From Leptogorgia sarmentosa (lineage: Eukaryota): a stretch of DNA of 64,000 nucleotides. Position numbers and translations under genes: made by a program. Where the stretch lies: the NCBI GenBank assembly GCA_964658305.1, contig OZ210885.1, positions 5,766,001 through 5,830,000 on the forward strand, given 5' to 3'. Below the pieces are notes generated by a model that was not told the origin of the DNA, ran no database searches, and saw only the letters and a list, made by a program, of their open reading frames with translations. This document shows, one piece after another, positions 39,256-64,000 of this stretch. Every line of letters begins with the position of its first letter. Positions within the stretch are counted from its first letter, which is position 1.

Positions 39256-39604
39256 CCCGTAAACATTGTATGAATTATAACTGTGATATTTCCCAAAACT
39301 CCAATGATCATTGCCAAGAATTTAAACACAACGGACGAAATAAGAAAATAATTTTGTACTTCGGGGAAATGCGACGAGTTATTCGCCATGGTTAGAAGTT
39401 TTTAATACACAACTTACTGTAACTGAGCATCTGCGTAGAATGACGAAGCCACGAAAGTGACAAAGAATTAAGTATTTGCATAATAGTCTTTGTTAAAGCT
39501 CGTAAATACTTGGGGCGGGTTTAAAATTGCCCTAAGAAGATTGTGAACAGTCTAAACGTGTCTACATTAATTCAGTTTCTGTTAGCAGATGGCAAATTAC
39601 TTTT
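39256..39604 (-). pseudogene. Tandem duplicate of the promoter and first ~45 codons of GPCR paralog 3
   Basis: Near-identical to 38897-39245 at period 359 bp; duplicated ATG at 39389. Confidence 0.88.
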
Positions 39605-41970
39605 CATTGTCTATTCGGCATTGTAACATAACAAATTTGGCGCTAATTGAATGACGGAAATTCTGTTTACTTCAGAAAGTGGCGTCAAAAGTTTCTGATA
39701 AATTGCCTAATCCCCAACATTTCTTTATTTTATGTCAAATTCCCTAAGGTCCGTTTGATATGATCAAATGCATGCTTACCCGGGAGAATGAAGCATTAAA
39801 TGATTTTGAAGTGCTGACATGTGCAGCTATAGTTTATAATTTGAAAAAACTTCTGGTTTCTCAAATTTCAATTTGTTCTACTTAATGAAATATATCTTTT
39901 TTGCTGCTTAGTAACTACAAGAAACTAACTTTCGTTCTTTCGTTTAATAAACATGTCTCTGCTCATTTCAATACGTCAAGATTACTTGACGCTTCATTAA
40001 ATCCCTGTAAGTAAGATCATATATATAAGCCCTAAATTGTGACACTTACGACCTTTCAATGATCGATCCACTAAAATTTAGGTGCGATCGAGATTAATAG
40101 TGTTCTCATTAATTATAAGAACAGCATGGAAGTATAATAATCATAAGAATACAATCAGGTTCATGTATGACTGACTGAGTGCCATTCTCCAAAGTTTTGT
40201 TCCAACATTCTCTATTTAGTTAGGACCCGTCCACACATATCCGGATATTTTTGAAAACGGAGGTTTTTTTCACCGAAAACGGAGTTTTCAAAAACGCTCT
40301 CCAGATTGGAAGCTTTCGAAAACGCCGTTTTCGTGTTTACGTGTGGACGGGCGAAAACGGAGGTTTTCGAAAACGATGACGTAAAATCAGGCCTGCGATC
40401 GCTTTGAACATCTCACATTACTGAGCAATGCGCATGCTCTACGCCGGGCGCTATCAAATTTCCTCCGTTTTGCCGTAAATAATCAAATAAGCGCATTAAA
40501 GTCCGTTTTACATTGTGGTCGCTTTGCCCGATATTTAATCTAAACCTTTACAAATTATTAAAAGTCTAAATCTCTCTGTATTTCATTTTATTAGTAAAAT
40601 ATCTTTAGAAACACACTAGTACTACATCATTCAAAGTACGAGATTCTTTACATTTATATTCATGTGATTGCATAATATAGAAACTAACGTTAAAATAAAT
40701 TTCAATTTTTACGTGCGTACACGTACGTATGGAAAACGCGTAACTGGAAAACAGCCTTAACGCTTCCTCGACGTGCCCGCGCGATTGATTTTTCATGAGA
40801 CTAAAATTACGCAGGGGACTGGTACGGAAATTGGCCTTTACATTCTCCTGGCCTATGGTGCCGCTTCCAAGAGCGACATGCTTTTATTTCAAAAGTTAGG
40901 AAATAGGTACATCGCCATTTATAATCCAGTGATCATGTTAACATAAAGGCCTGATTGCAGGGGCGATATTTCTTGGCGAATTGCGAAAATTTTCGCGCGA
41001 AATATTTGTTCGCATGCGTGATAAAGGCAAATAAGATTTCTCGAGAAAAATTTTCGCTTCGCCAGTGAGTAGAAGTCAGTTCTACTCACTGCGAAAGCGA
41101 AAAATGTGGGAGAATTCAATAGAATCATTCAATATACTATAATATCATTTTTATAAAATAAATTTCCCTAGGTTTTTCCAAACCAATGCACTCTAATACA
41201 CTTTACAAAAACTGACACTCATAATATAAACGTCTGTGTCCATTCTTTGTAAAACTAATCCTTTTTCTTTCAATATATTGCTTTGATTTATTCACTTAAT
41301 AATTAAATATTTAATTCACGTGTGCCTATTAACGCTGGTTTATGCGACAATAATTTGTACCAAAACAAATATTTAACTAACTGATGGACATTTAATGTCA
41401 CAGTATGATGATTTGTGACATTTGTCATCACACATACTCATATCTAATTTATATTTTATCACAAAAATATTCCTTCTTACAATATTATATCCGCGTGCAA
41501 GTTTACTTCCATAACATTGCAATATACACAGTCAGTGGCTTATTCCCAAATCAACGTCAACTCAAATTCGCAGGCCTCTTAAAAAATGAATATTGGAAAA
41601 GGACTCGAAATGAAAATCTAACTCACGTATATTTGGTCTCCTGTGATTATTTTTCTCTGAGAAGAGAATGTTACAAAGTTTATTGAGCTGGCAAAATAGA
41701 CTAAACAAAAACAGTAACATTCGGCAAAGTTAATTTGACTGCTTTTTATTGCTTCGCTGTTAAAGCAATTTCATTTCTGTTCAAATGGCTGACAATGAGT
41801 TACCTAGCAACCTCTTGACGTTTGCTGGACGATGTCCAACGAAATCTCTCTTACAACACTTGTTCGAGATTATCGTGATTTATTAGTCTACCTTCAAGAG
41901 CACTTGAGACAATTTCGAGAATAGATTACTTTTTGTAGTACAGTACAGCTAGTACCTATGTAAGATAATT

Positions 41971-42176
41971 AAACCCCTGCTGCACGAGCAATTTTTGTGT
42001 GACAATTTGCATGTGAAAAACTGACCATTCTTATTTACCCGTGTAGACGAGCAAAATTGGGAAATTTTTGAGGCAATTGGGGAAATACATTTTTTGAAAA
42101 TCTGGTGTGTCAGCTTTTAGCTATGTGACAAATAAAAATTGCCACATAAAATTTGGTCGTGTAAACGAGGCTTAAC
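41971..42176. mobile_element. Degenerate PIF/Harbinger-like MITE
   Basis: TTAAACCCCTGCTGCACGAGCAA ... TTGGTCGTGTAAACGAGGCTTAA imperfect inverted ends. Confidence 0.45.
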
Positions 42177-42543
42177 TTACAATATGCAATTGTGAAGCCA
42201 GCCCGACAATTTAGTGATGCCGTGCAAATTAAATCTGAGATCATTATCATATTTCATTTCTTTAGAACCTGATTCTTGTGGACACAGAAATATTTGCATA
42301 GCATCATCAAATTGTCACTGCTCAGACTTGCTTATTTGGAAAGAAAGGTTGAAATTGCGAATGTCATGCACCTGCATGTGTGATGTGTTTGAGTACTTAA
42401 CACAGTAAACGTTGGAAAAACGGGAATGAGTGCAGGTTCCGTTTAAGCGATAAATCTGTATCGTCTGTTTATCTTTTTCACCGTTCGTGTATTAAAATTA
42501 TTCTTAACATTTTCAAGGATTCTTTAGAATAAAATATATCACA

Positions 42544-43494
42544 ATGGCAAATAACTCGACATATCAGTTCTCTACAATACCAAGCGAGTTTCTTATTTCG
42601 TCCGTTGTATTCAAATTCTTCGCAATGATTATTGGAGTTTTGGGAAATATCACAATTATAATTCATACGCTTTCTACGAGAAAAGAAAAGACAGCGACAT
42701 CTTACTTGATTAGAAACCTGGCACTGGCAGATCTTCTCGTGTGTTTAACATTTTATCCAATATGGATCGTTGAATTTATACAGACTTTATTAAACATCAA
42801 TAGTGATCAGGACTTGTTTTGTAAGTTAAGTCGCTCCAGCATTAAAGCATTACTGTTCGCTTCAGTAGCCACACTTCTCGCAATTACTGTTGATCGCTGT
42901 ATTTATATTGTAAAACCTCTCAGATATCCGCTGATTGTGACCAAACGACGAGTTTTAGTAGCTATGTCAGGTATTTGGTTGATTGCCTGTTGTGTTTTTG
43001 CTGTTCTAATGGTAAGCATAAGAACATTTAAGGAAACTTTAAGAAATATTTGTTACATTGATGATACCCTGGGTTACTGCAGGGAGACGATTTTTCTCTA
43101 TTTTCCACTGACTTTAATAGTAATTCTGAATGTTTGGATTTTAATTGTTGCGGAGAAACAACGTAAACGCATCTGGGCTGAAACAGCAAACAACAGGAGG
43201 GACGCTAATCGATTTTTTCACGCTCTTAAAGCAGTTAAAACATTTAGTATCGTTGTTGCAGTGCTGACTTTCTGTGTTTTAACACCAACAGTGGTTGGGA
43301 CAATGCTACCTAACATTTCGTCATGTAGTGAATCATGCCAACGGTTGTGGTTCGCAGTTTTTAACTATGAGTTTTATGGAATAAACTCCATTGTGAACGC
43401 TTTCATCTATGGAATGAGACATATCGAATACAGAAAAGCTCCTGGACAGATCCTTCATAGCATACTTCGATGCAAGAAACACACCAACAAATAA
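42544..43494 (+). CDS. Intronless class A GPCR, paralog 4 of DRC cluster (316 aa), inverted relative to the other three
   Basis: Same motifs GN, NLALAD, DRC, FCVLTP, NSIVNAFIY. Confidence 0.93.
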   Translation: MANNSTYQFSTIPSEFLISSVVFKFFAMIIGVLGNITIIIHTLSTRKEKTATSYLIRNLALADLLVCLTFYPIWIVEFIQTLLNINSDQDLFCKLSRSSIKALLFASVATLLAITVDRCIYIVKPLRYPLIVTKRRVLVAMSGIWLIACCVFAVLMVSIRTFKETLRNICYIDDTLGYCRETIFLYFPLTLIVILNVWILIVAEKQRKRIWAETANNRRDANRFFHALKAVKTFSIVVAVLTFCVLTPTVVGTMLPNISSCSESCQRLWFAVFNYEFYGINSIVNAFIYGMRHIEYRKAPGQILHSILRCKKHTNK

Positions 43495-44871: not shown

Positions 44872-44944
44872 GCCTCATTAGCTCAGGGGTTCGAGCACTG
44901 GTCTTGTAAACCAGGGCTTCAGAGTTCAAATCTCTGATGAGGTT
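44872..44944 (+). tRNA. tRNA-Thr(TGT), several substitutions
   Basis: GCCTCAT/ATGAGGT acceptor, CTGGT-CTTGTAA-ACCAG anticodon arm, CAGAG-TTCAAAT-CTCTG T arm. Confidence 0.7.
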
Positions 44945-45101
44945 TTATTTTCTTCGAAAACTTTGAATAACTTGGACGACAAACGCCTAGATTGTATTCC
45001 ATGTGCTGTTCAGTGAGTTAAACTGATGAAATAAAAAAGCTATTGGAAGAGTACTACGTTGCAAAAAAAACATGCTAGAGCTAGGAAGATTTTAGCATGT
45101 C

Positions 45102-45173
45102 GCCTCATTAGCTCAGTGGTTAGAGCACTGGTCTTGTAAACCAGGGTTCAGAGTTCAAATCTCTGATGAGGCT
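45102..45173 (+). tRNA. tRNA-Thr(TGT)
   Basis: Full cloverleaf, 1-nt shorter variable loop, followed by T-run terminator. Confidence 0.85.
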
Positions 45174-45312
45174 TTATTTTCTTTGGAAACTTTGAAGAGC
45201 GTGGAACACAAACGCCCACAGTGTCTTCAATGTGCTGTTCAGTGAGTTAAAAAGTTAAAAGTGATGAAATAAAAACGGTATTAATGAAAGTGTACTACGT
45301 TGAAAAAAACAT

Positions 45313-45350
45313 GTAACCAAGGGTCCAGAGTTCAATTCTCTGTTGAGGCT
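45313..45350 (+). pseudogene. 3' half fragment of tRNA-Thr
   Basis: AGGGTCCAGAGTTCAATTCTCTGTTGAGGCT without 5' half. Confidence 0.75.
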
Positions 45351-45449
45351 TTAATTTCTACGAAAACTGTGAAGAACGTGGAAAACACGAACATATGTGC
45401 TCTTCAATGAGTTAAAACTGATGAAATAAAAAAGGCATTTAAGCAGGTT

Positions 45450-45522
45450 GCCTCTTTAGCTCAGTGGTTAGAGCACTGGTTTTGTAAACCAGGGGTCCAG
45501 AGTTCAATTCTCTGATGAGGCT
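45450..45522 (+). tRNA. tRNA-Thr(TGT), one acceptor-stem mismatch
   Basis: GCCTCTT/ATGAGGC; loop TTTGTAA. Confidence 0.75.
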
Positions 45523-45717
45523 TAATTTTCTTCGAAAACTTTGAGACTTGACTTGAGTAATTCAATCAGACTAAATTGTAAAGTTTTGCAAAAAAAGAAA
45601 ACAAGTGGGTAACCTTCTCTGTTATTTTTATCATTTTGATACATGGCATTAGTGTACGATCGCAAAGCAATATAGTTCTACAGCTAGCTTATCAAAGCAA
45701 CATCACATTACGTAGAC

Positions 45718-45790
45718 GCCTCATTAGCTCAGGGGATAGAGCACTGGTTTCGTAAACCAGGGGTCCAGAGTTCAATTCTCTGACTGGGCT
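45718..45790 (+). tRNA. tRNA-Thr(CGT) variant, probably pseudogene
   Basis: Loop TT-CGT-AA; two acceptor-stem mismatches (3' strand ACTGGGC). Confidence 0.6.
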
Positions 45791-46020
45791 TTGTGAAAAG
45801 TATTCATCGGCTTCGTTATTCGTTACAAGTTGTAACAAATAATGATGTTGATGATTTTATAAGGTATCAAGTTAACTCTCGTCATTGTCTGAAAAGTGTG
45901 ACCTGAAACAAAATTTTTGAAGTGAATTTATTTCATGAAAGACACGTGATAATTCGGGAAATCAAGTTTAATTAACTTCGTAATTGGATTTATATTCTGA
46001 GTTTCAATGCAGAAGAAGTA

Positions 46021-46105
46021 GCCTCATTAGCTCAGGGGTTAGAGCACTGGTCTAGTAAAACAGCTAGGAAACCAGGGGTCCAGAGTTCAATTCTCTGATG
46101 GGGCT
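46021..46105 (+). tRNA. tRNA-Thr(AGT) variant with 12-nt insert 3' of anticodon
   Basis: CTGGT-CT-AGT-A[AAACAGCTAGGA]A-ACCAG; other arms pair normally. Confidence 0.6.
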
Positions 46106-46293
46106 TTGTGAATAAGTATTCATTGTGAATATAAGAATTCATCCATTTCCTTTTTCGTAATTGGTTACAAGGAATGCAGTTAACTGTCCAGATTGTATGA
46201 GAAGTGTGACCTGAAGTGATCATGAGTTTATTTCATGAAAACACGTGATAATATGGTAAATTAGTAATTCTGAGTTTCAATAGGGAAGAAGTT

Positions 46294-46366
46294 GCCTCAT
46301 TAGCTCAGTGGTTAGAGCACTGGTCTTGTAAACCAGAGGTCCAGAGTTCAAATCTCTGATGAGGCT
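46294..46366 (+). tRNA. tRNA-Thr(TGT), intact
   Basis: 73 nt, all stems pair, TTTATTTT downstream. Confidence 0.92.
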
Positions 46367-46500
46367 TTATTTTCTTTGAAGAACGTGGAGGACGGACGAC
46401 CCGGCCGGTGTTAAAAGGGTGTTAAAAGTGATGAAATTAAAACGGTATTGGAAGAGTACTACGTTCGAAAACACATATGCTTGGAAGATTTTGGAGAGGT

Positions 46501-46586
46501 GCCTCATTAGCTCAGTGGTTAGAGGTTAGAGCACTGGTCTTGGTCTTGTAAACCAGAGGTCTAGAGTTCAAATCTCTGATGAGGCT
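46501..46586 (+). pseudogene. tRNA-Thr(TGT) pseudogene with two micro-duplications
   Basis: GGTTAGA and TGGTCT each duplicated in tandem. Confidence 0.8.
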
Positions 46587-46792
46587 GGTCGAATAAGTGT
46601 TCTTCCATTTCCTTCTTAGCAATTTGTTCTTAAAATATTGCAGAAATTAAACATCATGCATCGTGATTGTACGACAAATGTGGCCTCAAACCGTTTTTTT
46701 GAGAAAGCTGATTTCCTGGAAAACGTCTTGATCATACGGGAAATTAATCTCATAGTTACATTTATATTCTGAGTTTTATTCGTAATGAAGTT

Positions 46793-46864
46793 GCCTCACT
46801 AGCTCAGGGGTAGGGAACTGGTCTAGTAAACCAGGAGTCCAGAGTTCAATTCTCTGATGGGGCT
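46793..46864 (+). pseudogene. Degenerate tRNA-Thr(AGT)
   Basis: Loop CT-AGT-AA; D stem and acceptor stem mismatches. Confidence 0.7.
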
Positions 46865-47127
46865 TAAAAGTATCGTTATCAAAAATCGACCTGTTAGTTT
46901 TGTGAATCGGAAATAACTTTGTTGAAAGTGGAACTCAGAGTTCCGCTCACTTGTCATATATTCGTTATTATAATTCAATCAGACTAAATGGTAAATTTTT
47001 ACAAAAAAAGAAAGCAAGTGCATGACATTCTCTGTTATTTTTATCATTTTGATACATGGCATTAGTGTACGATCGCAAGGCAATATAGTTCTACAGCAAG
47101 CTTATCAAAGCAACATCTCGTTGCAAC

Positions 47128-47202
47128 GCCTCATTAGCTCAGGGGTTGGAGCACTGGTCTTGTAAACCAGGGGTGTCCAGAGTTCAAATCTCTGATGGGG
47201 TT
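47128..47202 (+). tRNA. tRNA-Thr(TGT) variant with 2-nt variable-loop insertion, possibly pseudogene
   Basis: GGGGTGTCCAGAG; weakened acceptor stem. Confidence 0.6.
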
Positions 47203-47400
47203 CAAAAATGTCGCCATCAAAAATTGACCTGTTAGTAATTAGATTGCTAAATAATTTTAAAAGTGGAACTCAGAGTCCCGCTCACTTGTAATATTTCGGT
47301 ACTGCAATTCAATCAAAGACTAAGGCCTGATGATCTGAAATAAAAAAGCTATTGAAAGAGGACTACGTTAAAAAAAATGCTAGGAAGATTTAAGCAGGTC

Positions 47401-47473
47401 GCCTCATTAGCTCAGTGGTTAGAGCACTGGTCTTGTAAACCAGGGGTACAGAGTTCAATTCTCTGATGGGGCT
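47401..47473 (+). tRNA. tRNA-Thr(TGT)
   Basis: 73 nt cloverleaf, GCCTCAT/ATGGGGC. Confidence 0.87.
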
Positions 47474-47729
47474 CAAAAGTATCGTTATGAGAATAGTGAA
47501 TAATTTTTAGAGTGTAACTCAGAGTTTCTCTTACTTGTAATATATTCGTTATTAATTGATAATAATTCAATAAAAAACTAAATGGTAACGTTTTACAATT
47601 AAAGAAAACAAAACAAGTGCATATTCTTCTCTTTTGATTTTACCATTTTGAAACATGGCATTAGTGCAGGATGGGAAAATAACATAATTCTACATGATGC
47701 TTTTAGGAGCAAAATCACATTGCATAGAC

Positions 47730-47814
47730 GCCTCATTAGCTCAGGGGTTAGAGCACTGGTCTAGTAAATTGTCTAGTAAACCAGGGGTCCAGAGTTCAAA
47801 TCTCTGATGAGGCT
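47730..47814 (+). tRNA. tRNA-Thr(AGT) variant with 12-nt insert 3' of anticodon
   Basis: CTGGT-CT-AGT-A[AATTGTCTAGTA]A-ACCAG; perfect acceptor stem; T-run downstream. Confidence 0.62.
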
Positions 47815-50366: not shown

Positions 50367-50878
50367 AAAACTGAAATTCCATGCCGCCCAGCAGTTGACA
50401 AAGATGAACTCAACAAATACTTTCTCCACTGTCCAGAAGGTTGTGACAGCAGCAGCAGACATTTGATGCAGAAAATACGTCTGATTGTCACAGAGCTTAA
50501 CGTGTCGAAAAGATTTGGAGATCACGTGCTATGGTAATCATATTCATTTGTGTTTCTGGTCAGGTTCTCGCGGAAACAACATTATTGTTCAAGTAGTCAA
50601 CGGAAAAACACACATAACAACGTGAAAAGAGTCAGTCATGCAGGGATTTAACAACGTGAAAAGAGTCGGTAATGCAGGGATTTCGTCAGAGGTAATTGGA
50701 GTCAATTATTGGGTACGCTCCTCTCCATCTGGGAAAGCTAACGACAGCGCTGGGATCAGGTAATCCAAAATTATCTATCGCAGGTGGAGTTCTTACTTTA
50801 ACTGGCGAAGTCTTTAGCCAATATGAACGTGATCGAAAAGAGTTGGAAACCAATAAATTATACCGTATAACTCAATAA
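50367..50878 (+). pseudogene. Cys/His-core family copy A (frameshift, stop, internal duplication)
   Basis: After TTTTAG: KTEIPCRPAVDKDELNKYFLHCPEGCDSSSRHLMQKIRLIVTE, frameshift near 50500, then CRKDLEITCYGNHIHLCFWSGSRGNNIIVQV..*; ~34-nt tandem duplication at 50615-50682. Confidence 0.8.
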
Positions 50879-51244
50879 ACATTTCCTAATCGAGACTACA
50901 AATCACGTACGACTATGTGAAGGGACAGTGCAGTGTAGTATAGACACAAAACCAATAGTGTAAAAACCTTTTGAGTATTTTTTTAGATGATGGGAGTCTT
51001 TTGTATATTTTCTTGCTTCGGTGGCAACTCTTGAAGTTTCTTCCGACTTTGTGTCTGTCCCTCCCCCGGAACAATCCAGAGATGCTTTGCGGGTTGTTTC
51101 GTAATGATGGTTAATTAGATTGACAAATTATATTGAAATCCACGACTAGCTGACAATCTGATAATCAATCAATCATATAAATTGACACTGTTCAATTGAT
51201 AAAAATATTAAAACTAAAAATACTAAAACAATTAGATTACTCGC

Positions 51245-51320
51245 TCTCGATTTCTACGAGATGACAGTTGATTCGGGCTTCGCCCTCATCAACTATCACC
51301 TCATAGAAATCTCGAGCTCG
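51245..51320. repeat. Core of palindromic dispersed repeat (~51226-51337)
   Basis: CTCGATTTCTA.GAG.TGA.AGTTGAT..GGGCTTCGCCC..ATCAACTATCACCTCATAGAAAT..CGAG. Confidence 0.7.
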
Positions 51321-51785
51321 TAATCTCATTGTTAAATAGACAACTCGGCCTCGTTGTCTAATTGTTAAATATCTAATAATTATAATACAACGCTATACTT
51401 CCCCTATTTGCTATAAGTGAAATTTAATCATGTAAGAAATGGCTTTTCTGCATTCTGAATGGTTAACTGAGCAATAGTTACTGCCTGGACTAGATCAAGC
51501 AGTAGCCATTGCTCTTTTCAACATGGCTGCTAAAATTTACTGATTTTTACTTTATCGCCAATGAAATTATACCAAAACAATTAGTTACTCCAGTCTCGCC
51601 GCTACATGCAGGGTTCGGTAAAGTTTCATCGATAATCACAGAGACTTCAGGAACTAATTGTTAATTAGCCCTTCTTGCTACAATATCATGCATACAATTT
51701 AATTATAGCTCGGCTTCATAAATAGATATAAACATAGATACAGATGACAATGACTTTCTCGGTATTCTTCAAGATGCAAAGAATC

Positions 51786-51810
51786 GAAAGCGAAAGAAAT
51801 GGAAGTTTCG
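51786..51810 (+). promoter_or_regulatory. IRF-like + degenerate kB motif of an orphan family 5' region
   Basis: GAAAGCGAAA followed by GGAAGTTTCG; downstream 51810-52080 aligns with the 5' regions of copies C/D/G but the ATG exon is decayed. Confidence 0.5.
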
Positions 51811-52264
51811 AAGCTTTAGAATGTTCTAACAGCAGGGTATTGATTACTTTAACGCTTCTTCGGTGCTATACCAAAACTACATTATGGTTCGCTTTGTTAT
51901 GCAAAAATCAAAAAGATAACTGAAAAGGAATTCAACGTTTCCAAAACAACAGAGGTTCTAGACACATAGTGTTGATTTGTATCTTTACGTTTACAGTGTA
52001 TTAAGAGAACGGACGACACGATTTATATTGTTTACTTTCCTTTGACTTTTTTATATCTCTAAAAATAATTCTGCTGCATGATGAAAACATTCAAGTCCCT
52101 TAGTTACAAATTCGTCATAATATATCATATATAGGCCTAGTTTGTAGAAGAGGAGTGAATATCAGTGATACCATTAAAATCACAGTGCAACGCGCTACGA
52201 ATTACCAACAAGAGAACACAACGCTTTTTCCAATTCTTGGTATTAAATATTAAATAATAAATAC

Positions 52265-52296
52265 GAAGCGAAAGCAAAACTACGAATGGAATTTCC
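52265..52296 (+). promoter_or_regulatory. IRF-like + kB motif upstream of copy B
   Basis: GAAGCGAAAGCAAAACT then GGAATTTCC (52288-52296). Confidence 0.5.
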
Positions 52297-52567
52297 GGGA
52301 ATTAGGCATGCATGACCAGCATAAGCCTTTTCTGAAATAGCGAGCACGATGCCTTGTGGTCTGGCTTCAGTACAAACAACTCCATGTAAGGCATAATGAA
52401 TAAACAATTTAGTATTGAAGCTAGATCACAATGCATGCAACATGTTCTTTATTGTTCAATTTCGACTGTTGTAGCGTCACAGTCATTTTCCAGCCGCTTT
52501 TCTCATACAGCCAGAAGCAATAATTGGCCAACGATCTCTGTTGTGAATCTCTACGTATTCATGCAGT

Positions 52568-53306
52568 ATGGCTAGTGAACTGGCATTACAGGTAATACAT
52601 TCTTACCTACTTATTTTGTTTGTGAAAAAAAATCGTGAGTGAGAATTTTAGGTATACTCGAGACAATAATTTTATTGTTTCAATATTTTGGTTAAAATGT
52701 TACCATACGTTATAGAAATTTTATCTTGTTTTACAAGTAAAAATAAGTTAGAGACATGTAATCAGATGCTATATAAACATCTAGCTAAATAAATCAGGAA
52801 CGAAGCAAATAAGATAACTCAACAATTGTGTCATCACAGGAACTGGAACAGAACGTACAAGAGATATAATGTGACCAAGAAATACGCCATGAAGATATAA
52901 ACAAATACTGTGATCACTGCACGGATGAAGACTGTGACATCTGTAGACGTTTGATCCAGGAGGCAGGTAAGATCATTGCAAGGTGCCAAGGACCCCAGAA
53001 TCATGTCGAAGGAATTTACAGATTATGTGCTATGGCAAGCATTTCGCACTGCGCTTCTGGTCAGGTTCTCCAGGAAATAAAATTGTGTTCCAGGTGAATG
53101 AAGATGAATTATTCGTAATGGTTGAGGAAAGAACTTGCCCAGAGTCAACCAGATACTTTTTGAGGCAGCAATTGGCACGATTTTCTTCTTGGAGTAGTGC
53201 ACTTCTTTTCCCCGAACAAGTTGCTCCTACTTTCTCACCCGAAGAAACAGCCACTTTCGTCAATGGATTTTACAACTTAAAGACTGGCTGGATATATAGA
53301 CTTTAA
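52568..53306 (+). pseudogene. Cys/His-core family copy B (in-frame stop and frameshift)
   Basis: Exon 52568-52591 MASELALQ|GTAATA; exon from 52840 ELEQNVQEI*CDQEIRHEDINKYCDHCTDEDCDICRRLIQEA (TAA 52867-52869), 8-nt insertion near 52984 shifts frame to PESCRRNLQIMCYGKHFALRFWSG..NGFYNLKTGWIYRL*. Confidence 0.8.
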
Positions 53307-54889
53307 CATGGCTTGAAAACTCGATGTACATATCATATTAAATTTTCATAATCATATCTTACTTGATATAATATTTTACAAAGCATGAATTGGACTTTCT
53401 GAAAATGAAACACAGGTCAAAGCCATTAAATGGAACTTCCTGAATAAACATTTTCAAAATTTCAATGTGTATTAATCGGTACAATCGCGAAATATCGCAC
53501 TGCCTTTTCTAGTTTAAATGACTTATTTAGTTGTTGGCAAGCTGTGAGATTTTACGTCAGGGAAAACCGCATGCTGATCCAGTTAATTCACTGACTGGAA
53601 TCTTTAATTTTCATTGAAATGATACCGTCAGAAAATACATTCGTCGTCTGTTTATAATAAGTTAACGTTACCTTCAGCGTTGGAAATTGAACGCCATTGC
53701 ATTAACTAAGGAAACAAAGAATCGAAACTAAAACTACGAGTCAAAGAACGAGGATAGCGCCCAGAAGCTGACATTATCCGTTTACCCCCAACTACATGGG
53801 CGCGAACGTATGTCAGTTTTCCCTTAAATTATGTCAAAGGAAAAAATCCAAAATTAGGTTTTTATGCCATATACAGCTAGAAAACATTAATTGGCCAACG
53901 ATCTGTTGTGAATCTCTACGCATTGATGCAGTATGGTTAATGAATTGGTAATTCTAATTCTCCTTGTTTCGTTTTCATATTTTGGAGCGACTGTTATAGA
54001 CATAGTTATTTAAGAGAAAAATATAGTAGCTTTCATGCATGCGTGCTCCGAATAGGCATCAATACAACCCTGGGAAAGGGAATATATATTGTTGAATATC
54101 CCGAGAGAATTTATATATCGAGAATTTCTGATGATTTTGCATAGGATGAATAACGACTGTCGCTGTTTTCCGTCATTCTTTCATTCTAATAGTGTGGATT
54201 TTTCCCTTTCATAATCACTGTTTGCAAATTGTTGGAGTTCGAAATCTGTATAATCTCGTGTGAGAGGGCCTCAAATGCTATTGCAACTTTCCTGGACAGT
54301 AGACGTTACGGTACTTTGCCCTTGTTATCTCAAAAGTGAAAATTATTTACACTAAATATAGTTTCTAAGTCATTATTTGAAGGAAATGGACAAAGATATA
54401 ACTAGAGGATTATACTAACACCATGCATTATATTCTATTCCTACCAAGTACGATTGTTGTCGAACATGCAGAATATATTGCATGTATTGTTTCAGTTTTA
54501 TGTATTGGTATTGCTATATATTTGATATAGCGAGATGACTACATGCTGGTCTAGGATATTGTTATTCTGCCACATTGGCTTTATCAAATACCACGTATGC
54601 ATCAAAACTATGTAAAAGCTATAGCTATATCTAATGAATATAATGTACAGTTGTTGAGTTTCTTAAATTCATTAAAATTCAAGGAGCCAAAACGAAAGGA
54701 ATGGAATTCATGGAGTCTAAAAATGCTCTGACAGCAGGGTATTGATTGCTTCAATGCTTCTTGTGTTCTGTGCAAAAAACGACATTAGTTTGCCTTGTCA
54801 TGCAAAACATCAAAAGCTAGGAAACCGCATTCCAAGGTGTCGAAAACAACCAAGGTCTTCATTTTGACTTGTGTCTTTAAATTTACAGT

Positions 54890-56019
54890 ATGGCAAGCGA
54901 ACAGACAGGAAAGGTAATTTATATTGTTACTTTTTACTTGCTTTCTTATCTGTAAAAATAGTGCTGCTCGTAGGAACGCACTGACATTAGAATGAAATTT
55001 CTCACAATTAAAAACTTCAAAATATGGCCAGTATATAGGTAGCGGAGCTTAGCGGATATAACAACATGCATAAACAAGCAGGAAAAGTCCTACTCGCCAC
55101 CTAAACGATACAATGAGATTCGACGTTTCAAGCGAATGAGCGACGTCGGGAATTAGTGTGGCAAAGTCCTTTGCTCGTAACGTCGAATCTTATTGTATCG
55201 TTTAGGTGAACGGGTAGAAACATGTTCAAGTCATGAAGTTGACATCATAATTATATCACAATAAAGGATAAAGGATATTTAAAGGATAAAGCTATACTTG
55301 AACAACATTTTGTCGACAAGATGTACGAGTAACAATCGTGAATGAATCACGATGGATTAGTGCTGTATATTATATCAGTTGATTAGTCCTGTATATTATA
55401 ATTTATTAAGTATATATGTATATGTACTTACTTGTATAATACATATATATGTGTGGTTCATACATAATTTTAATTGCAGATGTTAAAACATCTGTAATAC
55501 AATTTCTCGAAAGATATATGTAATGCACTTTTGTGCATGTTTTGTTGTTGTTAGGAAAATAAAATTGAAGAAATCGATTGTAATCCAGCAGTAACCAATG
55601 AAGATATAAACAAATGCCTGGATCAGTGCTCGCAAAAATGCGGAAATTGCAAAAGTGTGATGGAAAAAGCGCGATTCACTGTTACAAGACGCAAAGAATC
55701 ATATCGCAAGAATTTGGAGATAACTTGTCTTGGTGATCATATTTCCTTGTGTTTCTTGTCTGGTTCGCGGGAAAATCAGCTTCTAGTTCAAATGGGTAAT
55801 GACGGGCAGGCTCATGTAGAGATAATTCGAGAGCGTGACTGCTGTAAATGCATGTGTGTTTGCCTAAAAAGAATGTTTGATTGCATTAAATGCTGCTTAA
55901 ACCTCATCTGTGAGTGCTTCAAATGGTGCTTTACACGTATGTGTTGCTGCTGTAAATGTTGCAGAGATGAACAGGGTGAAAACGAGCCGTTAGTGAGACA
56001 GACTGAGGGAACTGACTAG
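54890..56019 (+). CDS. Cys/His-core family copy C, 162 aa, cysteine-string tail
   Basis: Exon 54890-54913 MASEQTGK|GTAATT; exon 55555-56019 ENKIEEIDCNPAVTNEDINKCLDQCSQKCGNCKSVMEKAR..EITCLGDHISLCFLSGSR..CCKCMCVC..MCCCCKCC..ENEPLV..*; phase-0 intron. Confidence 0.85.
55095..55212. repeat. Palindromic element in intron of copy C
   Basis: CACCTAAACGATACAATGAGATTCGACGTT / AACGTCGAATCTTATTGTATCGTTTAGGTG. Confidence 0.8.
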
Positions 56020-56949
56020 TTTTCATTTTTCTGTTACTTTTGCTATCAAAAATATAAAAAGTCCGTGTTTTGTATTTCGCAAGTGAATAATAACAATTCA
56101 TCATGCTGACTGCAGGCTCAAACTAACTTCTTATTCTTTGTATTACATTGTATCGAAATATTAAAATCCTCACTTATACCATTAACATTTTCTGTCTGTT
56201 TAGATTAATAGCGAGGGGGTATTTTTCAGTTAATAAGAAAGTATAGGCTATAAAATAAAAAGACAGACCGTTTCAATAAATATATATTCCGGCAAGGACA
56301 GGAATCTATCTAATTTACAGCCGACATTTTCATCTCTCCTGTTCAAATACCAACATGAAATGTAACAAAGTAATCTCAATGTTTTGAAAACTTAAGCAAA
56401 TTGAATGTTTTGATACATTTCAGTAAGGAACATACATGACCATGGATTGGCAATGTATTTTCTTCTGTGTTGTTTTTAGCATACAGTATGTGGAGGATAA
56501 CACGGATTTTAGATGGGCTTTGAAAGCAAACTAAAACCATACCGCACTAACTTATGAGTGAATGCTGGAGGGTAATGCAATTACGCAAAACACAAAAATA
56601 TAGCAAAAAATTTTTTGACAATTATAGTTTTAAAACTTACGAGTTACAAAGAAAGAGCGACAAATTGGAATTTTTCCAGGTAGCTATATAGATTCATTCA
56701 CATAAACCACAACATATTTTACACATATTTTATGAAAATCAAATTATACTGAAAGTATACTAAATTTATCGCGCGAGGTGAATATTCACCTAGAATCATG
56801 AGAGAGGTAAATGATTGTTAGCTAAATATCCTTTTATATAATTTGACACCGGTACTAGTGTTATTAATTTCCCCACCCTAACATCGCTCCACATCGTGCG
56901 ATTCAACAAAAAATTTCTTTGCCCGCAATTTCATCGATGAATGATTTGA

Positions 56950-56979
56950 GAAATCGAAAGAGAAATAAATGGAATTTCC
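56950..56979 (+). promoter_or_regulatory. IRF/ISRE-like + kB composite upstream of copy D
   Basis: GAAATCGAAAGAGAAA (three GAAA at 6-nt period) then GGAATTTCC (56971-56979). Confidence 0.6.
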
Positions 56980-57152
56980 GGAGCTCTAAAAAAGCTTAAC
57001 AGCAGGATATTGATTGCTTGTGTCCTAGCTGTGAAGAAAATAACATTATAGTTTGCCTTGTTATGCAGAAATCAAAAGGAAACTGTAATTTTAGGTTTGG
57101 ACAACAACACTGGTGTTTCAGTTTTCTATATTTTTATCTGTATGTTTACAGT

Positions 57153-58077
57153 ATGGCAAGCAAACAGCCAGAAGAGGTAATTATTATACAATTGCTGATT
57201 TCTTCTAGTTGCTACTCAGAATTGTGTACTCACTTGTTCCCAGTGCAGTGGGAACTTCTAAATGTTGTCGAATCTTTACAATTCACCGCATTAATGATGT
57301 GTCACTCTGAAGGCTGTTACAATTGGTATCATGATGTGTTATATAACTTTGCAGCAATGAATAGCATGAATGCATGAAGCTAACACGAATTTTGAAAAAG
57401 TATTTCTGCATAGATATATATATAGGCCCAACACCGCATGCATTTTGAAACACAACAACGTGAACCAAACTATAGTAAACTATAGCATTCCAGTAAGTGC
57501 GGTTCTTGTTGAAATACCTTTCAGATCCGTAAATTTTCTCTGTGTTTTGTAGGAAAGTGAAACACAACAAATCAATTGTAATCCAGCAGTAACCCATGAA
57601 GATATAAACAAATACATGGACTTCTGCTCTGACAAATGCGAAAATTGCAAACGTGTGATGCAAAAGGCGCGTTCAATTGTAGCAGAAAAAGAAAAATCGC
57701 TCCGTAAAAGCCTCGAGATTACGTGCAGGGGTGAACACATTTCCTTGTGTTTCTGGTCTGGTTCACGGAGTATAAAAGTTGTGGTTCAGATGGGTAGTGA
57801 CGGGAACGCTCACGCAGAGGAAACTGAAAGGATTCGGTGGTGTAAGCGGTGCAAGTCTGACTGCTGTGGATGCTGCAAGTCTGACTGCTGTGGATGCTGC
57901 AAGTCTGACTGCTGTGGATGCTGCAAGTCTGACTGCTGTGGATACTGCAAGTCTGACTGCTGTGGATGCTGCAAATGCAAATGTTGTTGTGGGTGCCTGA
58001 ATGGCATTATGCGTTTTTTAAGCCAGCGAAAGAATACACGAACGAACGAGGGTGGGCAGCTAGTAACATCGGAATAG
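57153..58077 (+). CDS. Cys/His-core family copy D, 182 aa, (CKSDCCGC)n tail
   Basis: Exon 57153-57176 MASKQPEE|GTAATT; exon 57553-58077 ESETQQINCNPAVTHEDINKYMDFCSDKCENCKRVMQKAR..EITCRGEHISLCFWSGSR.. Confidence 0.87.
57850..57974 (+). repeat. Coding 24-bp tandem repeat x5 (TGCAAGTCTGACTGCTGTGGATGC)
   Basis: Five near-perfect copies, one TGC>TAC change. Confidence 0.95.
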
Positions 58078-59066
58078 TTTGGTTAACTTACTACATCACT
58101 CTGGGATAAATAAAACACTTTAAACGAACTTTAACCAGAATTAATAACCTTTACTAGTTGAGGGTTTCTGCTGTCCCTGTATCAACTTCAATATTGCTTT
58201 TAAGAGTGAAAGTATGCACTTACTGTAAATCTGCTCCTATTTTAGAAGTTAGTTATAGGTCTTCAAGATGACAATTTGTAGTCTTAATTTCAAAATTCGT
58301 TGGCTAAGAGCACACGACATAACTTGACTTAGCGCAAAATATATAGCCTAATTGCCCGATGAACTGTTTTTAGTAGCTACTAATTAGATTTAATGAAGCG
58401 ATAGCGAACGAAAAGCTCTTGCAGGAGGGTGCCTTCATTGCTCTGTGTGTTTACATGATTTTCCTTTATGTGCAAATTTAAAGGAGAGAGCGGGAGCTTC
58501 AAAATCAAGTGAAGGTCCTTGACATCCATCTGATGCCAAACATACTTTAAATAAAACGGTACAGTATAGCTAATATCATTTTTAACGTTTGGTGAATGGC
58601 ATGCGAGCAAGTAAGATGTTTTCGCACTGCTTGTTGTACGTTTAAATAACGACAAGCTGCGAAATTCTTCGCGGGTAGCTACATCACGCAAAAATTGTCT
58701 ATACACACGCTACATGTGCATCTATAAATATTCATTATACAAGTAATTAATTATATATTTCCTTTGTAAAAAACATGTAAAAACTTTGCGTGATGTTTAC
58801 GTTGGTGCATGTAGTTATTTTCTACATGTACAACATTCAAGTGAGAATTTAGTATGCGACAGACAATTAGGAGATTTCAAATCAGAGATTACGGTTCAAT
58901 ACTCGCATAGACTGACTAGGTAGGTTCTAAATTTCGGCAGGCGATATTGCATTAGAAGTCGTATATACAATAGCTTTTACGCAGGGAAGAGCCCGAGAAT
59001 GCTCCTAGTTTTTCAAGATGAAATTCGATAGCGATTTCTAATCCGAGCATCAAAATTCAGTGATTC

Positions 59067-59086
59067 GAAAGTGAAAGGAAATTTCG
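59067..59086 (+). promoter_or_regulatory. IRF/ISRE + kB-like composite of a decayed family 5' region upstream of copy E
   Basis: GAAAGTGAAA immediately followed by GGAAATTTCG; downstream aligns with C/D/G 5' regions. Confidence 0.55.
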
Positions 59087-59867
59087 GAGCTTTTCAGAAT
59101 GTTCTGACAGCAGGGCGTTGATTGCTTCATTGATTCTAACAGTTGCATTATTGCAAACTAAGACACGGCTTTCTTTGATGTTCCAAAAAAAACATTTCAA
59201 AAAACAACCAATTAAGGTTTCAGCGTCGATTTGTTTTTTAGGTTTACATTATGGTAAACAAACCTACAGTTTACGATATTGCTGATTTCTTTTAGTCTTA
59301 ATTTAACAAAACATCACAAACAAAGTTATTAACATCATCTTATATGCCCCACTATATATATACCTGCTTCAAATAGAAAGTGCAGAACTTACAGTAATAT
59401 ATCATTATGGTGAATTGCATGCGAGCAAAAAGATAATTTCGTACAGCTTTTTCCAGTTTAAACACAACGACTAATCTTAATTGTCTACACGCTATGAGAT
59501 TTTAGTTGGGAATTGCCACACGCTGATTTAATAATTTGCCGATTGTATCTTTAAATATCGCAATCATGCAATAAAATCGTCGTCAAATGAATGTGATACT
59601 ATTATTATGGCCAAGGTTTGTTCGCTCATAACCAACATTGCTGGGATTAAGAATATGTGCATGATAATCATGTTCTATAGAAGAACTGCGGTTTGTGCGG
59701 CAGCTGTAAATTCTCCCATCAGGTCGGCTAGGACTTGCTTTGCTTTTGTTATGTAAAATAGGAAAAAATCCAAACTAATAACTGATCAGTGACCATTTCG
59801 AAACCATTTCATGTGATGTAGCCAAAAGAAGCAGGTGTTCGGTTTTGTGAATCCCTACATGAACCTT

Positions 59868-60963
59868 ATGGCTGATGGAGAGGTACATAATACATAATAT
59901 ATATAGTGCTGTTTCCTCTTCTTTCTCTATGATATGCTGAATTTAACTGATATATGATAGGTATTTTCATGAATAACATTTCATTTAAGTAAGAATTTCG
60001 GTTACGACACACACAATATAGCTACAGTATAAATTATAATGATTTCAACATTTACCCACTTGCGTGAGAGATGCCTCTCAATTCCGTTTCATACTAGTAA
60101 TATAGATTCTATAGCTGTTAGGATAAATTTCGTGCAGGCGATCCTGAATAAACATTATGCACAGAAATCCAACAACAACATGTACGTTTGTTATGATACA
60201 TATGGTATACATTTTTCAACCGTTGAAGTATCTGAATGGCTGAAAGTATTTGGCATTAATAATCAAATTTAAAAATTAGCCAACGTTTACCATGTTGGTT
60301 ACTTAATTTTGCTCATATGACGACGCTAGATATAGCTACCTTGAATACCTTCAGTTGTCCTTGAAGCACGTAAATCACTAAACTTATGAGTTACCCATAA
60401 AGCATGCAATTGCATGGCATTTAACTTTACACAAACCTTGGAGAAAACCATTGTTGCAGTATTAACCTTCCACACTAATACTGAAATGGTTTAAAATGTT
60501 GCGTTTATAGAGACGCACTGTGGAAGAAATCGGATGTGGTCCAATGATAACCCATCAGAAAATAAACGACTACCGAGAGTATTGCCCAGGAAAATGCGAT
60601 AATTGCAAAAATGTTATGTTAAAGGCGCGTCAAATTGCCAGAGAGATATCAGAATCATGTCGGAAGAGTATGGAGATTACATGCAATGGTGATCATTTTA
60701 CCTTGCGTTTTTTGTGTGGTCTTCGGGGAAACCAAATTCTAGTTAGCAGCAACAACGGAAAAGTAGATGTAACGTTACGTAAACAAACATGGCGAGAGTG
60801 GTTTACACCGGGAGGTATCAGGAATACTATAAAAACAATACAACAGGTAACGTTCTCCATCATATTGGTTTTTGTCATGGCCAGAAATTGCGGATATGTA
60901 AGATTGCGCGTGCGCGAAATTTTTGGTATAAAATGGCGACAGATTCCCTATGTTTTTCTATGA
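59868..60963 (+). CDS. Cys/His-core family copy E, ~155 aa, hydrophobic/basic tail
   Basis: Probable exon 59868-59882 MADGE|GTACAT (in-frame ATG also at 59859); exon 60511-60963 RRTVEEIGCGPMITHQKINDYREYCPGKCDNCKNVMLKAR..EITCNGDHFTLRFLCG..VTFSIILVFVMA..*. Confidence 0.75.
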
Positions 60964-61539
60964 GAAAATTTAATAATTCATAATATATATTTTGACATGT
61001 AAATTATTTTGAATAATTGCTGAAATGAAAATAGTATCTTATAGTAAACAGCAACTATCTGGATAACATAAACTGGTGATAAGTATTAAACCCGCCCTGC
61101 TTTTTTAAAATAAATGCTCAAAGAATTACCTTACTTTGCTATGAAGAAACAGCAAGGGCCAAGGAAGAATCGCTCCATTCATTTTACTCAGACAACAATC
61201 GACGGTTGCCGAAATCATTTATTTTGAACGAGTGATTTCTGCCTATGTTCGGCAATTTAAGTTAAATTGGCAAGTAGTGATCTTCGAGATCACATGACGG
61301 TCCAGGGGCCGGGGTATTAAAGGCTTTTAGACTTCTCAACTTCCCATTGAGAAAATTAATTTTTATTGATATCTTAATTCCTCTTTGGGACATAACAAAA
61401 TACTTAGGATGACAAAATACTTATACCATAATTATATAGTCAGACACGAAATGAATCCCTCCTCCCTCATTCCTCATCCAAGACAGTCCAACAAGTAAAT
61501 CACTTTGTTGAACGCTACTTTTTTTGTTTGTATCTTCAG

Positions 61540-62328
61540 AGCAACAAAGTAAATGATGATCCGGTGCCTCAGGTAATTAATTCTATATTTTTTCCAAAGA
61601 TCGATCAGTGTCAATTGCATGCATATGTAAGAAAAACGTTTTATATATGCATATACTTGGACTTAAAACGTTCTTATACGATTCGTGTGTGAAATGTTTT
61701 CAACATTTTGGGATGTGGTACAACTGGTCTGAAAAAAGGAGTGTATACAGTGGAGGGGGTGGGAGTGGAGGGCGGTTTGAATCTACTAAATGAGATACAT
61801 ATAAAATTTGACTATTGATCGATTGCATTATTACAGGAACGCGAACGTAAAATAGAATATATTCTATGTGATCCAGTGGTACACCATGAAGATCTGAACC
61901 GATACTGTAATTCTTGTTTGGTTGAAGACTGTATAGTTTGCAGACATGTGATGCAAAAGGCACGTCTGATCGTCGCAGGGGCCCCAGAATCATGTCGAAA
62001 GAATTTCGAGATTACATGCTATGGTGAGCATATTTCATTCCGCTTCTGCTCTGGTTCTCGGGGAAATAAAATTGCCGTCTTAGTGTGTGAAGGTACAATA
62101 CATGTTGTTATAGAGGAAAGAACTTGGAAACAGGCGATGATAGACTTTTTTAAGCGTCAATGGCAACAATTTTTGGGTATTAAACTCATAGTTGCTCTGA
62201 GAGCAGCACTTACTGACCGTGAAGCAGCTGTCTCTTATCTGCCACTCGAACAAAATGCCTGTTTGGTCAGTGGATTTCACAACTTAAGGACAGGAAGCAT
62301 ATACACCTTAACTTTGCCTGAAAACTAA
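61540..62328 (+). CDS. Cys/His-core family copy F (start codon not located)
   Basis: Exon 61540-61572 SNKVNDDPVPQ|GTAATT; exon 61837-62328 ERERKIEYILCDPVVHHEDLNRYCNSCLVEDCIVCRHVMQKAR..EITCYGEHISFRFCSGSRGNKI..SGFHNLRTGSIYTL..*; closest to copy B. Confidence 0.75.
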
Positions 62329-63112
62329 TTCAATTTTCTTATCATATCTTATTAAATGTTCATACAATATTAACTTTCTTTAATGAAGCCATTGAAAGAA
62401 AGCTATGCTTTTGTCGTAGCTATATGTCGTCAAATGTCTATACTATAGCTATATATATTCTTTGCACGTGCAATATGTCTAGAGTTTCTGTATATATATA
62501 CATATATTGGTTTGCGAAATTCAAAAGTCAAAATACTAGTGCTCAATGACATATAGACAGAGCAAAATGTATAAACATATATTAATGAATAATAACGTCA
62601 ATGAAAAGAAACACATCACTTGTAATATCAATTTTGGTTGTAATTGAACACTAACTCACACCAAGATACCTAACAACTGAATATTGTTAGTTAAAATAGA
62701 AAAATACAGTGCCAAGTGTAAAGTGTCTTATATGTGAAATAGTACCCAGGCAGCTAGCGTGTGTAAAATCACAATTATATAATATATATTATATATATTT
62801 ACTACTATCTATCTACATCTATATATACAAAACGTATAACAATGTGCCCTCAATAATTTGTTTGGCAATGTAAAACGTACGAGTAATAAACTACGAGTTG
62901 CAAAGAAAGAGTGACAAATGGCAATTTCTAATCATGTTCATTCACACTTCATCATCATAAACAACAATGAACGTTTCTTCAACGTTTTAAATTTGGCTGT
63001 TTATATCGTGAATGTTCACGATTTCTCAAATTTAATACACTTTCTTCGCCATTCAGCCATCTAAGGCTTGTTGTTTTGATGAATTTACGATTATTTTAAA
63101 CATCGCGTATTT

Positions 63113-63132
63113 ACAAAGGAAATGGAATTTCC
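63113..63132 (+). promoter_or_regulatory. kB motif upstream of copy G (IRF part eroded)
   Basis: ACAAAGGAAAT-GGAATTTCC (63124-63132), same context as copy D. Confidence 0.5.
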
Positions 63133-63306
63133 GGAGCTCTAAAAAAGCTTAACAGCAGGGTACTGATAGCTTGTGCCCTGTGAAGAAAATGAAATTATAG
63201 TTTGCCTTGTTATGCAGAAATCAAAAGGAAACTGTAATTTAAGGTTTGGACAACAACACTGGTGGTACGTTTCAGTTTTCTATATTTTTATCTGTATCTT
63301 TACAGT

Positions 63307-63820
63307 ATGGCAAGCAAACAGTCAGAAGAGGTAATTATTATACAACTGCTGATTGAATTATTGTTGCTGTCGCTGTGTTCAAGTAGCTATATAAGTGCAT
63401 GTGGTTGTCGTCAAAACCACCACTTTATTTTATAGCCGAAAACTTTCTTTCATGTTTTGTTGTCAGGAAAGTGAAACACAACAAATCAATTGTAATCCAG
63501 CAGTAACCCATGAAGATATAAACAAATACGCGGACTTCTGCTCCGACAAATGCGAAAATTGCAAACGTGTGATGCAAAAGGCGCGTTTAACTGTAGCAGA
63601 AGCAAAAAAATCGCTCCGTAAAAGCCTCGAGATTACGTGCAGGGGTGAACACATTTCCTTGTGTTTCTGGTCTGGTTCACGCAGTAAAAAACTTGTGGTT
63701 CAGATGGATAGTGACGGGAACGCTCTTGTGGAGAAGAAAAAAAAGATCGGTCGCCGAAGACGGCCTCAATTAACAATAAATTGGCGAAAAAACAGACGAA
63801 AGCGCCATATTCGCCAATGA
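63307..63820 (+). CDS. Cys/His-core family copy G, 125 aa, polybasic tail
   Basis: Exon 63307-63330 MASKQSEE|GTAATT; exon 63467-63820 near-identical core to copy D, tail EKKKKIGRRRRPQLTINWRKNRRKRHIRQ*. Confidence 0.85.
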
Positions 63821-64000
63821 ATATCGTACAAATAGGACGATTACCTAATATTACCACTCTTGAACAATTCGATATTTCAACAAAACGCTTGAAGGCACTT
63901 CAATTCACACGCGATTTAACATGACTTAGAGCAAAATATGTAATTGCACGATGAACTTTTTTAGTTTTCCTTACTTACATTTTAATGGAATCGAATGTGA

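What the first reader, a model, noticed from the sequence alone, without database searches (positions are those of the whole stretch)
55830..63820. One head, many tails: each paralog ends in a different candidate localisation module
Seen: after the conserved core the tails are dissimilar. C: Cys string in a hydrophobic helix-like segment (CCKCMCVC..KCC..MCCCCKCC). D: (CKSDCCGC)x5. E: hydrophobic VTFSIILVFVMA plus basic/aromatic end. F (and B): amphipathic-looking WKQAMIDFFKRQWQQFLG plus a shared GF.NL.TG.IY.L end. G: polybasic KKKKIGRRRR..RKNRRKR. Established: Cys strings are S-palmitoylation anchors, C-terminal hydrophobic stretches are tail anchors, and polybasic runs act as NLS or anionic-lipid binders. 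Inference: duplication delivers the same effector domain to different compartments.
Basis: partly seen in the sequence, partly recalled or inferred. Interest (0 to 1): 0.8.

Follow-up and report, generated by a model that had tools for sequence, protein, structure and literature searches.

The report
Coral gene array with retuned anchors
Seven tandem copies (two broken) of a small, likely soft-coral gene share an unnamed 90-residue domain, also found in amphioxus and acorn worm, and end in tails that likely arose by rewriting one membrane-binding helix and likely send the copies to different places in the cell, possibly for immune defence.

Summary
The tails are in the sequence as described, but they are not five unrelated modules. 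The array (50367-63820, +) holds five open copies (C-G) and two broken ones (A, B) of a family with no Pfam or fold match. Relatives occur in octocorals, amphioxus (one fused to a CARD) and a hemichordate. In 74 of 93 family sequences the core is followed by a Trp-initiated tail, amphipathic in 66 of the 70 long enough to test; E and F are of this default type. All five Cys-rich and both polybasic tails lie in one well-supported subclade containing C, D and G. C's tail is an 11-residue-periodic Cys helix ending in an acidic dileucine-like motif, both kept in homologs. G's tail is D's tail with an in-frame 156-nt loss of the Cys block, Arg/Lys gains, and a stop on the motif's leucine. E's 'tail anchor' is borderline and not conserved. 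Upstream blocks carry IRF-like and kB-like motifs. Best reading: a probably immune-related, membrane-attached domain that one lineage re-addresses by rewriting its anchor. Localisation, acylation, expression and core function are all untested.

The parts
50367..50700 (+). Copy A, broken: core frameshifted near 50500; 34-nt tandem duplication at 50615-50683
51767..51868 (+). Conserved upstream block of B (GAAAGCGAAA, GGAAGTTTC)
52840..53306 (+). Copy B, broken F-type copy: stop at 52867-52869, 8-nt insertion near 52980; keeps the GF.NL.TG.IY.L end
54670..54770 (+). Upstream block of C (IRF-like site with one mismatch)
54890..54913 (+). C micro-exon MASEQTGK, phase 0, GT donor
   Evidence: L002 has this exon joined directly to the core
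55555..56019 (+). C exon 2: core, Cys-rich amphipathic tail (55840-55962), ENEPLV at 55978
56942..57035 (+). Upstream block of D: GAAATCGAAA and TGGAATTTCC
57153..57176 (+). D micro-exon MASKQPEE
   Evidence: P0039 begins MASKQQSEE
57553..58077 (+). D exon 2: core, 24-nt x5.2 Cys repeat (57850-57974), EGGQLV at 58048
59048..59140 (+). Upstream block of E (GAAAGTGAAA, GGAAATTTC)
59251..59253 (+). E micro-exon remnant; ATG|GTAAAC could still supply an in-frame start (inferred)
60511..60963 (+). E exon 2: core, Trp-type helix start TWREWFTPGG (60787), 12-residue hydrophobic run, variable end
   Evidence: near-identical P0004 reads 13 residues further
61540..61572 (+). F small exon SNKVNDDPVPQ, in phase but without ATG; start of F not found
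61837..62328 (+). F exon 2: core, Trp-type amphipathic helix, conserved end motif
63094..63184 (+). Upstream block of G: keeps TGGAATTTCC, lacks the GAAANNGAAA site
63307..63330 (+). G micro-exon MASKQSEE
63467..63820 (+). G exon 2: core 95% identical to D in DNA, polybasic tail derived from a D-like tail; a second stop matching D's lies at 63833-63835

Best explanation
These are tandem paralogs of an unnamed ~90-residue domain whose default tail is a predicted membrane-binding amphipathic helix, and the C/D/G lineage has likely rewritten that anchor in place so that the same domain would reach different cell sites, possibly in innate immunity. Shown: shared core, gene models by splice signals, default Trp tail in most relatives, one subclade holding all Cys and basic tails, G derived from a D-like tail. 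Inferred: E and F lie on a membrane through the plain helix. C and D would be multiply S-acylated on the helix and sorted by AP adaptors through the dileucine-like motif to endosomes or lysosomes. G lost both signals and would bind acidic plasma-membrane lipids or enter the nucleus through its basic tail. The immune role is inferred from a CARD fusion in amphioxus, tandem birth and death of copies, and IRF-like and kB-like upstream motifs. What the core does is not shown; a binding or scaffold role is more likely than catalysis, because no polar residue is invariant.
For: 74 of 93 family sequences have Trp within 14 residues of the core end; 66 of 70 such tails exceed their shuffled hydrophobic moment (mean 0.51 vs 0.34). 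C, D, G, L001, L002, P0003, P0012 and P0013 form one clade (97/95; 9 rows with P0077, FastTree 0.978). C tail: moment 0.63 (p=0.008), periodicity peak at 100 degrees, L001 at 99 degrees; L001 grew by 33-nt (11-residue) repeats; 10 of 12 Cys kept between C and L001. Dileucine-like motif in the last 16 residues: 4 of 5 Cys tails vs 2 of 88 others; motif definition from PMC9605868 (passages). G vs D: 156-nt in-frame difference, last 51 nt align without gaps 30/51 (p=0.0005), G's stop sits on the Leu of EGGQLV. Repeat units are 24 and 33 nt in open genes, 34 nt in broken A. CARD (E=2e-15) plus two cores in amphioxus P0050.
Against: No expression, splicing, acylation or localisation data. Tail dN/dS between C and L001 is 0.51 over 39 codons (pN/pS interval 0.26-1.45) and 1.18 over the 17 junction codons, so tail constraint is not proven. 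The match of Cys tails to the Trp-helix profile is marginal (C p=0.039, D 0.036, P0003 0.054, L001 0.095; G 0.84). D's repeat has an 8-residue period (about 90 degrees), unlike a helix, and its Cys show no helical face. C and D end the motif in V, not L or I, and the four motif-bearing genes are kin, so the count is not independent. D/G core dN/dS is 0.93 on 3 synonymous changes (uninformative; G could be decaying). F has no start or upstream block found. The kB-like site lacks the first G of GGRRNNYYCC (PMC3630861, passages), and the upstream blocks are copies of each other. IRF knockdowns did not reduce cGAMP induction in Nematostella (PMC8713801, passages).
Confidence: 0.55

Rival explanations
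1. Same address, drifting tails: any sticky tail keeps the domain on the same membrane, the differences come from slippage and relaxed selection, and G (perhaps F) is a copy on its way to loss like A and B.
For: Two of seven copies are broken. D's repeats are 98% identical, a recent slippage. E's end differs between near-identical sequences (P0004) and from P0075. The tail pN/pS interval includes 1. G lost the IRF-like site.
Against: Cys positions, 11-residue register and the dileucine-like end are kept across C, L001 and P0003, and the motif also in D. G gained basic residues on both sides of the deletion, and P0013 in the same clade is also polybasic. F's end motif is kept in P0041.
Confidence: 0.22
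2. The tail is the working part (a membrane-remodelling amphipathic helix, as in IFITMs) and the core is a regulator or oligomeriser; tail variation then tunes lipid or pathogen specificity more than address.
For: The fastest change is in the tails. Many relatives continue into Gly/Ala-rich hydrophobic hairpins (11 of 74 Trp tails reach a 19-residue hydropathy of 1.6). The IFITM amphipathic helix plus S-palmitoylation is a precedent (PMC9716219, passages).
Against: The core is multiplied 2-6 times before a single tail, which suggests avidity of the core; G and P0013 have no amphipathic helix at all.
Confidence: 0.13
3. The Cys tails of C and D bind metal or cross-link by disulfides (metallothionein-like or keratin-associated-protein-like) and are not acylated.
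For: D has 26 Cys in 82 residues in CCxxC-type repeats with no helical period.
Against: C and L001 place Cys opposite the charged face (135-152 degrees) among F/W/L; the Cys block replaces a membrane helix and is followed by a sorting-like motif; the modelled N-termini show no signal peptide by eye.
Confidence: 0.1

Closest known systems
IFITM1/2/3 (CD225) cluster
   Same: Small two-exon paralogs with immune promoter elements, amphipathic helix, S-palmitoylation, and an AP-adaptor motif that sends some paralogs to endosomes and leaves another at the plasma membrane (PMC9716219, passages).
   Different: No CD225 match; here a folded soluble core precedes the helix, there is no clear transmembrane segment, and the variable part is C-terminal.
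Ras/Rho hypervariable C-termini (palmitoylated vs polybasic second signal; recalled)
   Same: Near-identical catalytic or binding domain, address set by a Cys-acylated or a polybasic tail.
   Different: No GTPase fold, no CaaX end; the default anchor is a Trp amphipathic helix.
Cysteine-string and CYSTM-type proteins (recalled; CSP papers seen as search listings only)
   Same: Dense Cys run among hydrophobic residues near the C-terminus (C, D).
   Different: No J domain or CYSTM match; the Cys run has an 11-residue helical period in C and L001.
Lineage-expanded immune adaptor domains of marine invertebrates, e.g. TRADD-N (PMC8195603, passages)
   Same: Patchy presence in cnidarians, cephalochordates and hemichordates, expansions, fusion to a Death-fold domain.
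   Different: The predicted order of strands and helices differs from the RRM-like TRADD-N; structural score only Z 3.0 (rmsd 5.0, 81 aligned).

Membership tests
IFITM/CD225 | CD225 domain | tested here: not met
   No CD225 hit for the 6 window copies or the 35 members of A3.
IFITM/CD225 | Induction by immune signals | not testable with these tools
   No expression data; only IRF-like and kB-like motifs.
Tail-anchored membrane protein (E) | One membrane-spanning segment of about 20 residues (length and 1.6 hydropathy bar recalled) | tested here: inconclusive
   Best 19-residue hydropathy 1.57, including TIKTIQQ; pure run 12 residues.
Tail-anchored membrane protein (E) | Segment kept in the closest relative | tested here: not met
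   P0075 aligns only to SIL and ends differently.
S-acylated cysteine-string anchor (C, D) | Clustered Cys beside hydrophobic and basic residues | tested here: met
   17 Cys in 62 residues (C), 26 in 82 (D).
S-acylated cysteine-string anchor (C, D) | Thioester-linked fatty acid | not testable with these tools
   Needs acyl-biotin exchange.
Acidic dileucine sorting signal | [D/E]XXXL[L/I] in a cytosolic tail (PMC9605868) | tested here: inconclusive
   Exact in L001 (ENEPLL) and P0003 (EDEWLL); V in the last place in C and D.
Bipartite NLS or polybasic lipid-binding tail (G) | Basic clusters: 14 K/R in 27 residues, two clusters about 10 apart (pattern recalled) | tested here: met
   the sequence cannot tell nuclear import from lipid binding.
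TRADD-N domain | RRM-like fold | tested here: inconclusive
   Z 3.0 with the full model; not among the 50 rows for the core model.
RelE/ParE-like domain (considered by eye) | RelE fold | tested here: inconclusive
   Only HigBA entries at E about 2 and TM 0.16-0.24; not listed.

The most novel reading that the evidence does not exclude
An undescribed innate-immune domain with a fold unlike any solved structure, shared by octocorals, amphioxus and hemichordates, which one coral lineage deploys as a panel: plain-helix copies, palmitoylated endolysosomal copies and a polybasic copy, made by stepwise in-frame rewriting of one anchor (Trp helix to Cys helix plus dileucine, then to an Arg/Lys tail), under IRF and NF-kB control.
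Probability: 0.3. Interest if true: 0.75.

Novelty: new variant of a known kind. Interest (0 to 1): 0.52.

Why it matters
Relocalising paralogs through variable tails is a known strategy, but here the steps can be read side by side in one 14-kb array. A 95%-identical pair (D, G) differs almost only in the tail, which makes a natural swap experiment. The core has no Pfam, NCBIfam, PADLOC or structural match in the searches run, yet reaches from octocorals to amphioxus, where it is fused to a CARD. If it is immune-induced, it adds an unknown component to invertebrate innate immunity, where unannotated NF-kB-dependent genes are already reported in Nematostella (PMC8713801, passages).

Tried and rejected
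Family and fold searches without a usable hit: Pfam (best for any member NuBaID_C E=5e-4 in 1 of 35), NCBIfam and PADLOC (44 members; only scattered single hits), PDB sequences, Foldseek PDB and viral (none at E<=0.001), VIA-align on 48,161 chains (best Z 3.9 full model; 3.5 core model), ESM Atlas (all under 0.9). These absences do not prove a new fold. No relatives in viral or prokaryotic contigs by pattern scan (close relatives only). RelE-like and TRADD-N readings: no support. G's tail as a frameshift at its A8 run: a 64-codon alternative frame is open but resembles no family protein, while the in-frame alignment to D explains the tail. E's end as a frameshift: alternative frames match nothing. 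No genome is held for this window, no sequencing reads were obtained, and no homodimer prediction was obtained, so splicing, expression and oligomer state stay open. mis-anchored two rows (P0003, P0007); tails were re-cut. Dropped before the count of 93: P0001 and P0004 (near-copies of F and E), 13 cluster duplicates (P0029-32, P0096-104), and three hits judged spurious (P0079, P0089, P0090). Literature: no paper held all terms for octocoral lineage-specific immune genes or any of five member accessions; other searches gave background only. Supplements were not read; the unannotated NF-kB-dependent gene list of PMC8713801 (Table S1) could bear on the immune reading. Three look-ups of earlier findings were empty.
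Full report
Setting. The window is animal DNA with intronless rhodopsin-type receptors and a tRNA-Thr cluster upstream. A translated search with copy G finds seven copies on the + strand between 50367 and 63820. No genome or reads were available. The closest named relatives are from the octocorals Paramuricea clavata and Dendronephthya gigantea, so the source is probably an octocoral (inferred).

Gene models. C, D and G each have a conserved upstream block, a 24-nt ATG micro-exon with a GT donor, and a large phase-0 exon, giving 162, 182 and 125 residues. Two outside facts support this model: locus L002 has the micro-exon joined straight to the core, and the named protein P0039 starts MASKQQSEE. 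E can start from an ATG-only remnant (inferred). F has an in-phase small exon without ATG and no upstream block was found. A is frameshifted; B has a stop and an 8-nt insertion.

Observation. D's fourth repeat ends in Y, and B shares only F's end motif.

The core. A profile search gave 28 near-length relatives and one protein with three cores and a single tail. The full HMMER scan gave 78 hits at E<=0.001, three of which I judged spurious. Named hits include amphioxus proteins, one with a CARD followed by two cores (P0050), and a Ptychodera protein with six cores. The core is under purifying selection (C vs L001 dN/dS 0.21; C vs D 0.38). AlphaFold gives a 94-residue model with pLDDT 90 and pTM 0.80: one strand, short helix, Cys-rich loop, long helix, four-strand meander. 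Three of the five models scored only 52-60. No library names it, and the best structural score among 48,161 chains is Z 3.5 (rmsd 3.3, 69 aligned), below the 7-8 that the tool reports as typical for unmatched models. No polar residue is invariant in 44 aligned members; the Cys pair pattern is replaced in amphioxus. A binding or scaffold role is therefore more likely than catalysis (inference); 'effector' is not shown.

The default tail. Of 93 family sequences, 74 have Trp within 14 residues of the core end, 5 are Cys-rich, 2 polybasic, 8 other and 4 short (a crude rule). Of the 70 Trp tails long enough to test, 66 exceed their shuffled hydrophobic moment (0.51 vs 0.34). This type runs from octocorals to amphioxus. 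E and F fit a profile of it (p=0.004, 0.001). F's whole tail, including the end motif, is kept in P0041. E's helix start is kept in P0075 but its hydrophobic run and end are not, and the run is borderline for a membrane span (1.57).

The rewritten tails. All Cys-rich and polybasic tails fall in one clade with C, D and G (97/95 on 34 rows; 0.978 on 84 of 93 cores rooted on amphioxus). C's tail is amphipathic (p=0.008) with a 100-degree period. Its homolog in L001 grew by 33-nt repeats, one 11-residue helical unit each, and 10 of 12 Cys are kept in the last 39 codons. Relatives such as P0077 (SWLKCFQW, then a Cys run) and L001 (TCWERMLKCF) look like intermediates, but the profile match of Cys tails to the Trp helix is marginal (p=0.036-0.095), so descent is inferred mainly from position and tree. 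Four of five Cys tails end in an acidic dileucine-like motif against 2 of 88 others; the four are kin, and C and D have V in the last place. Tail dN/dS is 0.51 with a wide interval, and 1.18 at the junction.

D and G. They are 96% identical upstream and 95% in the core, but 79% in the 3' flank, which suggests an older duplication with recent conversion of the 5' part (inferred). G's tail is 156 nt shorter in frame. Its last part aligns without gaps to D's (30 of 51 nt, p=0.0005), D's stop matches a second stop in G, and G's real stop falls on the leucine of EGGQLV. Just after the core, D's W and C codons face R, R and P codons in G (19 of 39 nt identical). So G lost both the Cys block and the sorting-like motif and became basic. 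P0013 is a second basic tail in the clade; whether it shares an origin with G is unknown.

Regulation. The upstream block is kept before B, C, D, E, G and in L001 and L002. An exact GAAANNGAAA (IRF-type, recalled) stands in 3 of 5 window blocks, against 13 on the whole + strand, and all 3 plus-strand GGAATTTCC of the window lie in such blocks. The site is one base off the NF-kB consensus (PMC3630861, passages), and the blocks are not independent. Cnidarians induce ISG-like genes and IRFs on poly(I:C) or cGAMP, with unannotated NF-kB-dependent genes among them, though IRF knockdown had no measured effect (PMC13319465 and PMC8713801, passages).

Verdict. The strategy is known from IFITMs (PMC9716219, passages) and small GTPases (recalled); the family is not named in any library searched, and no paper naming it was found. 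PMC8059564 (passages) added nothing specific. Interest 0.52.

Noticed in passing
window 44872-47814 +: Eleven tRNA-Thr-like genes in a tandem cluster, several with altered anticodons or internal duplications.
   Followed up: no
window 23920-43491: Five intronless receptor-like ORFs of 320-350 codons, four of them close paralogs; one was confirmed as 7tm_1.
   Followed up: partly
window 51227-51333 and 55098-55208: Two self-complementary elements of about 110 nt, the second inside C's intron; possibly small transposon remnants.
   Followed up: no
L002 130-720: A family copy that kept its upstream block but lost the intron exactly; its start codon reads ATA.
   Followed up: partly
P0039 residues 5-50: Two weak ubiquitin-interacting-motif matches (E 0.036 and 0.22, under the cut-offs) in front of the core in Dendronephthya.
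   Followed up: partly
P0002 residues 1-6: Starts MGSGAS, which looks like an N-myristoylation signal (consensus recalled): a possible further address signal at the other end.
   Followed up: no
window 62272-62310 and relatives: A Y-x-[L/I] motif closes the tail in 11 of 93 sequences, including B and F; role unknown.
   Followed up: partly
window 52259-52331: A second, weaker upstream block before B with TTCCGGGAA, a STAT-type site (consensus recalled).
   Followed up: no
window 6701-7093 -: An ORF with a Cys pattern that looks like a sushi/CCP exon (by eye, recalled).
   Followed up: no
P0082-P0084, P0096: Amphioxus members with an N-terminal zinc ribbon; P0096 and the CARD fusion P0050 have gene numbers four apart, which suggests a tandem cluster there too.
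   Followed up: no
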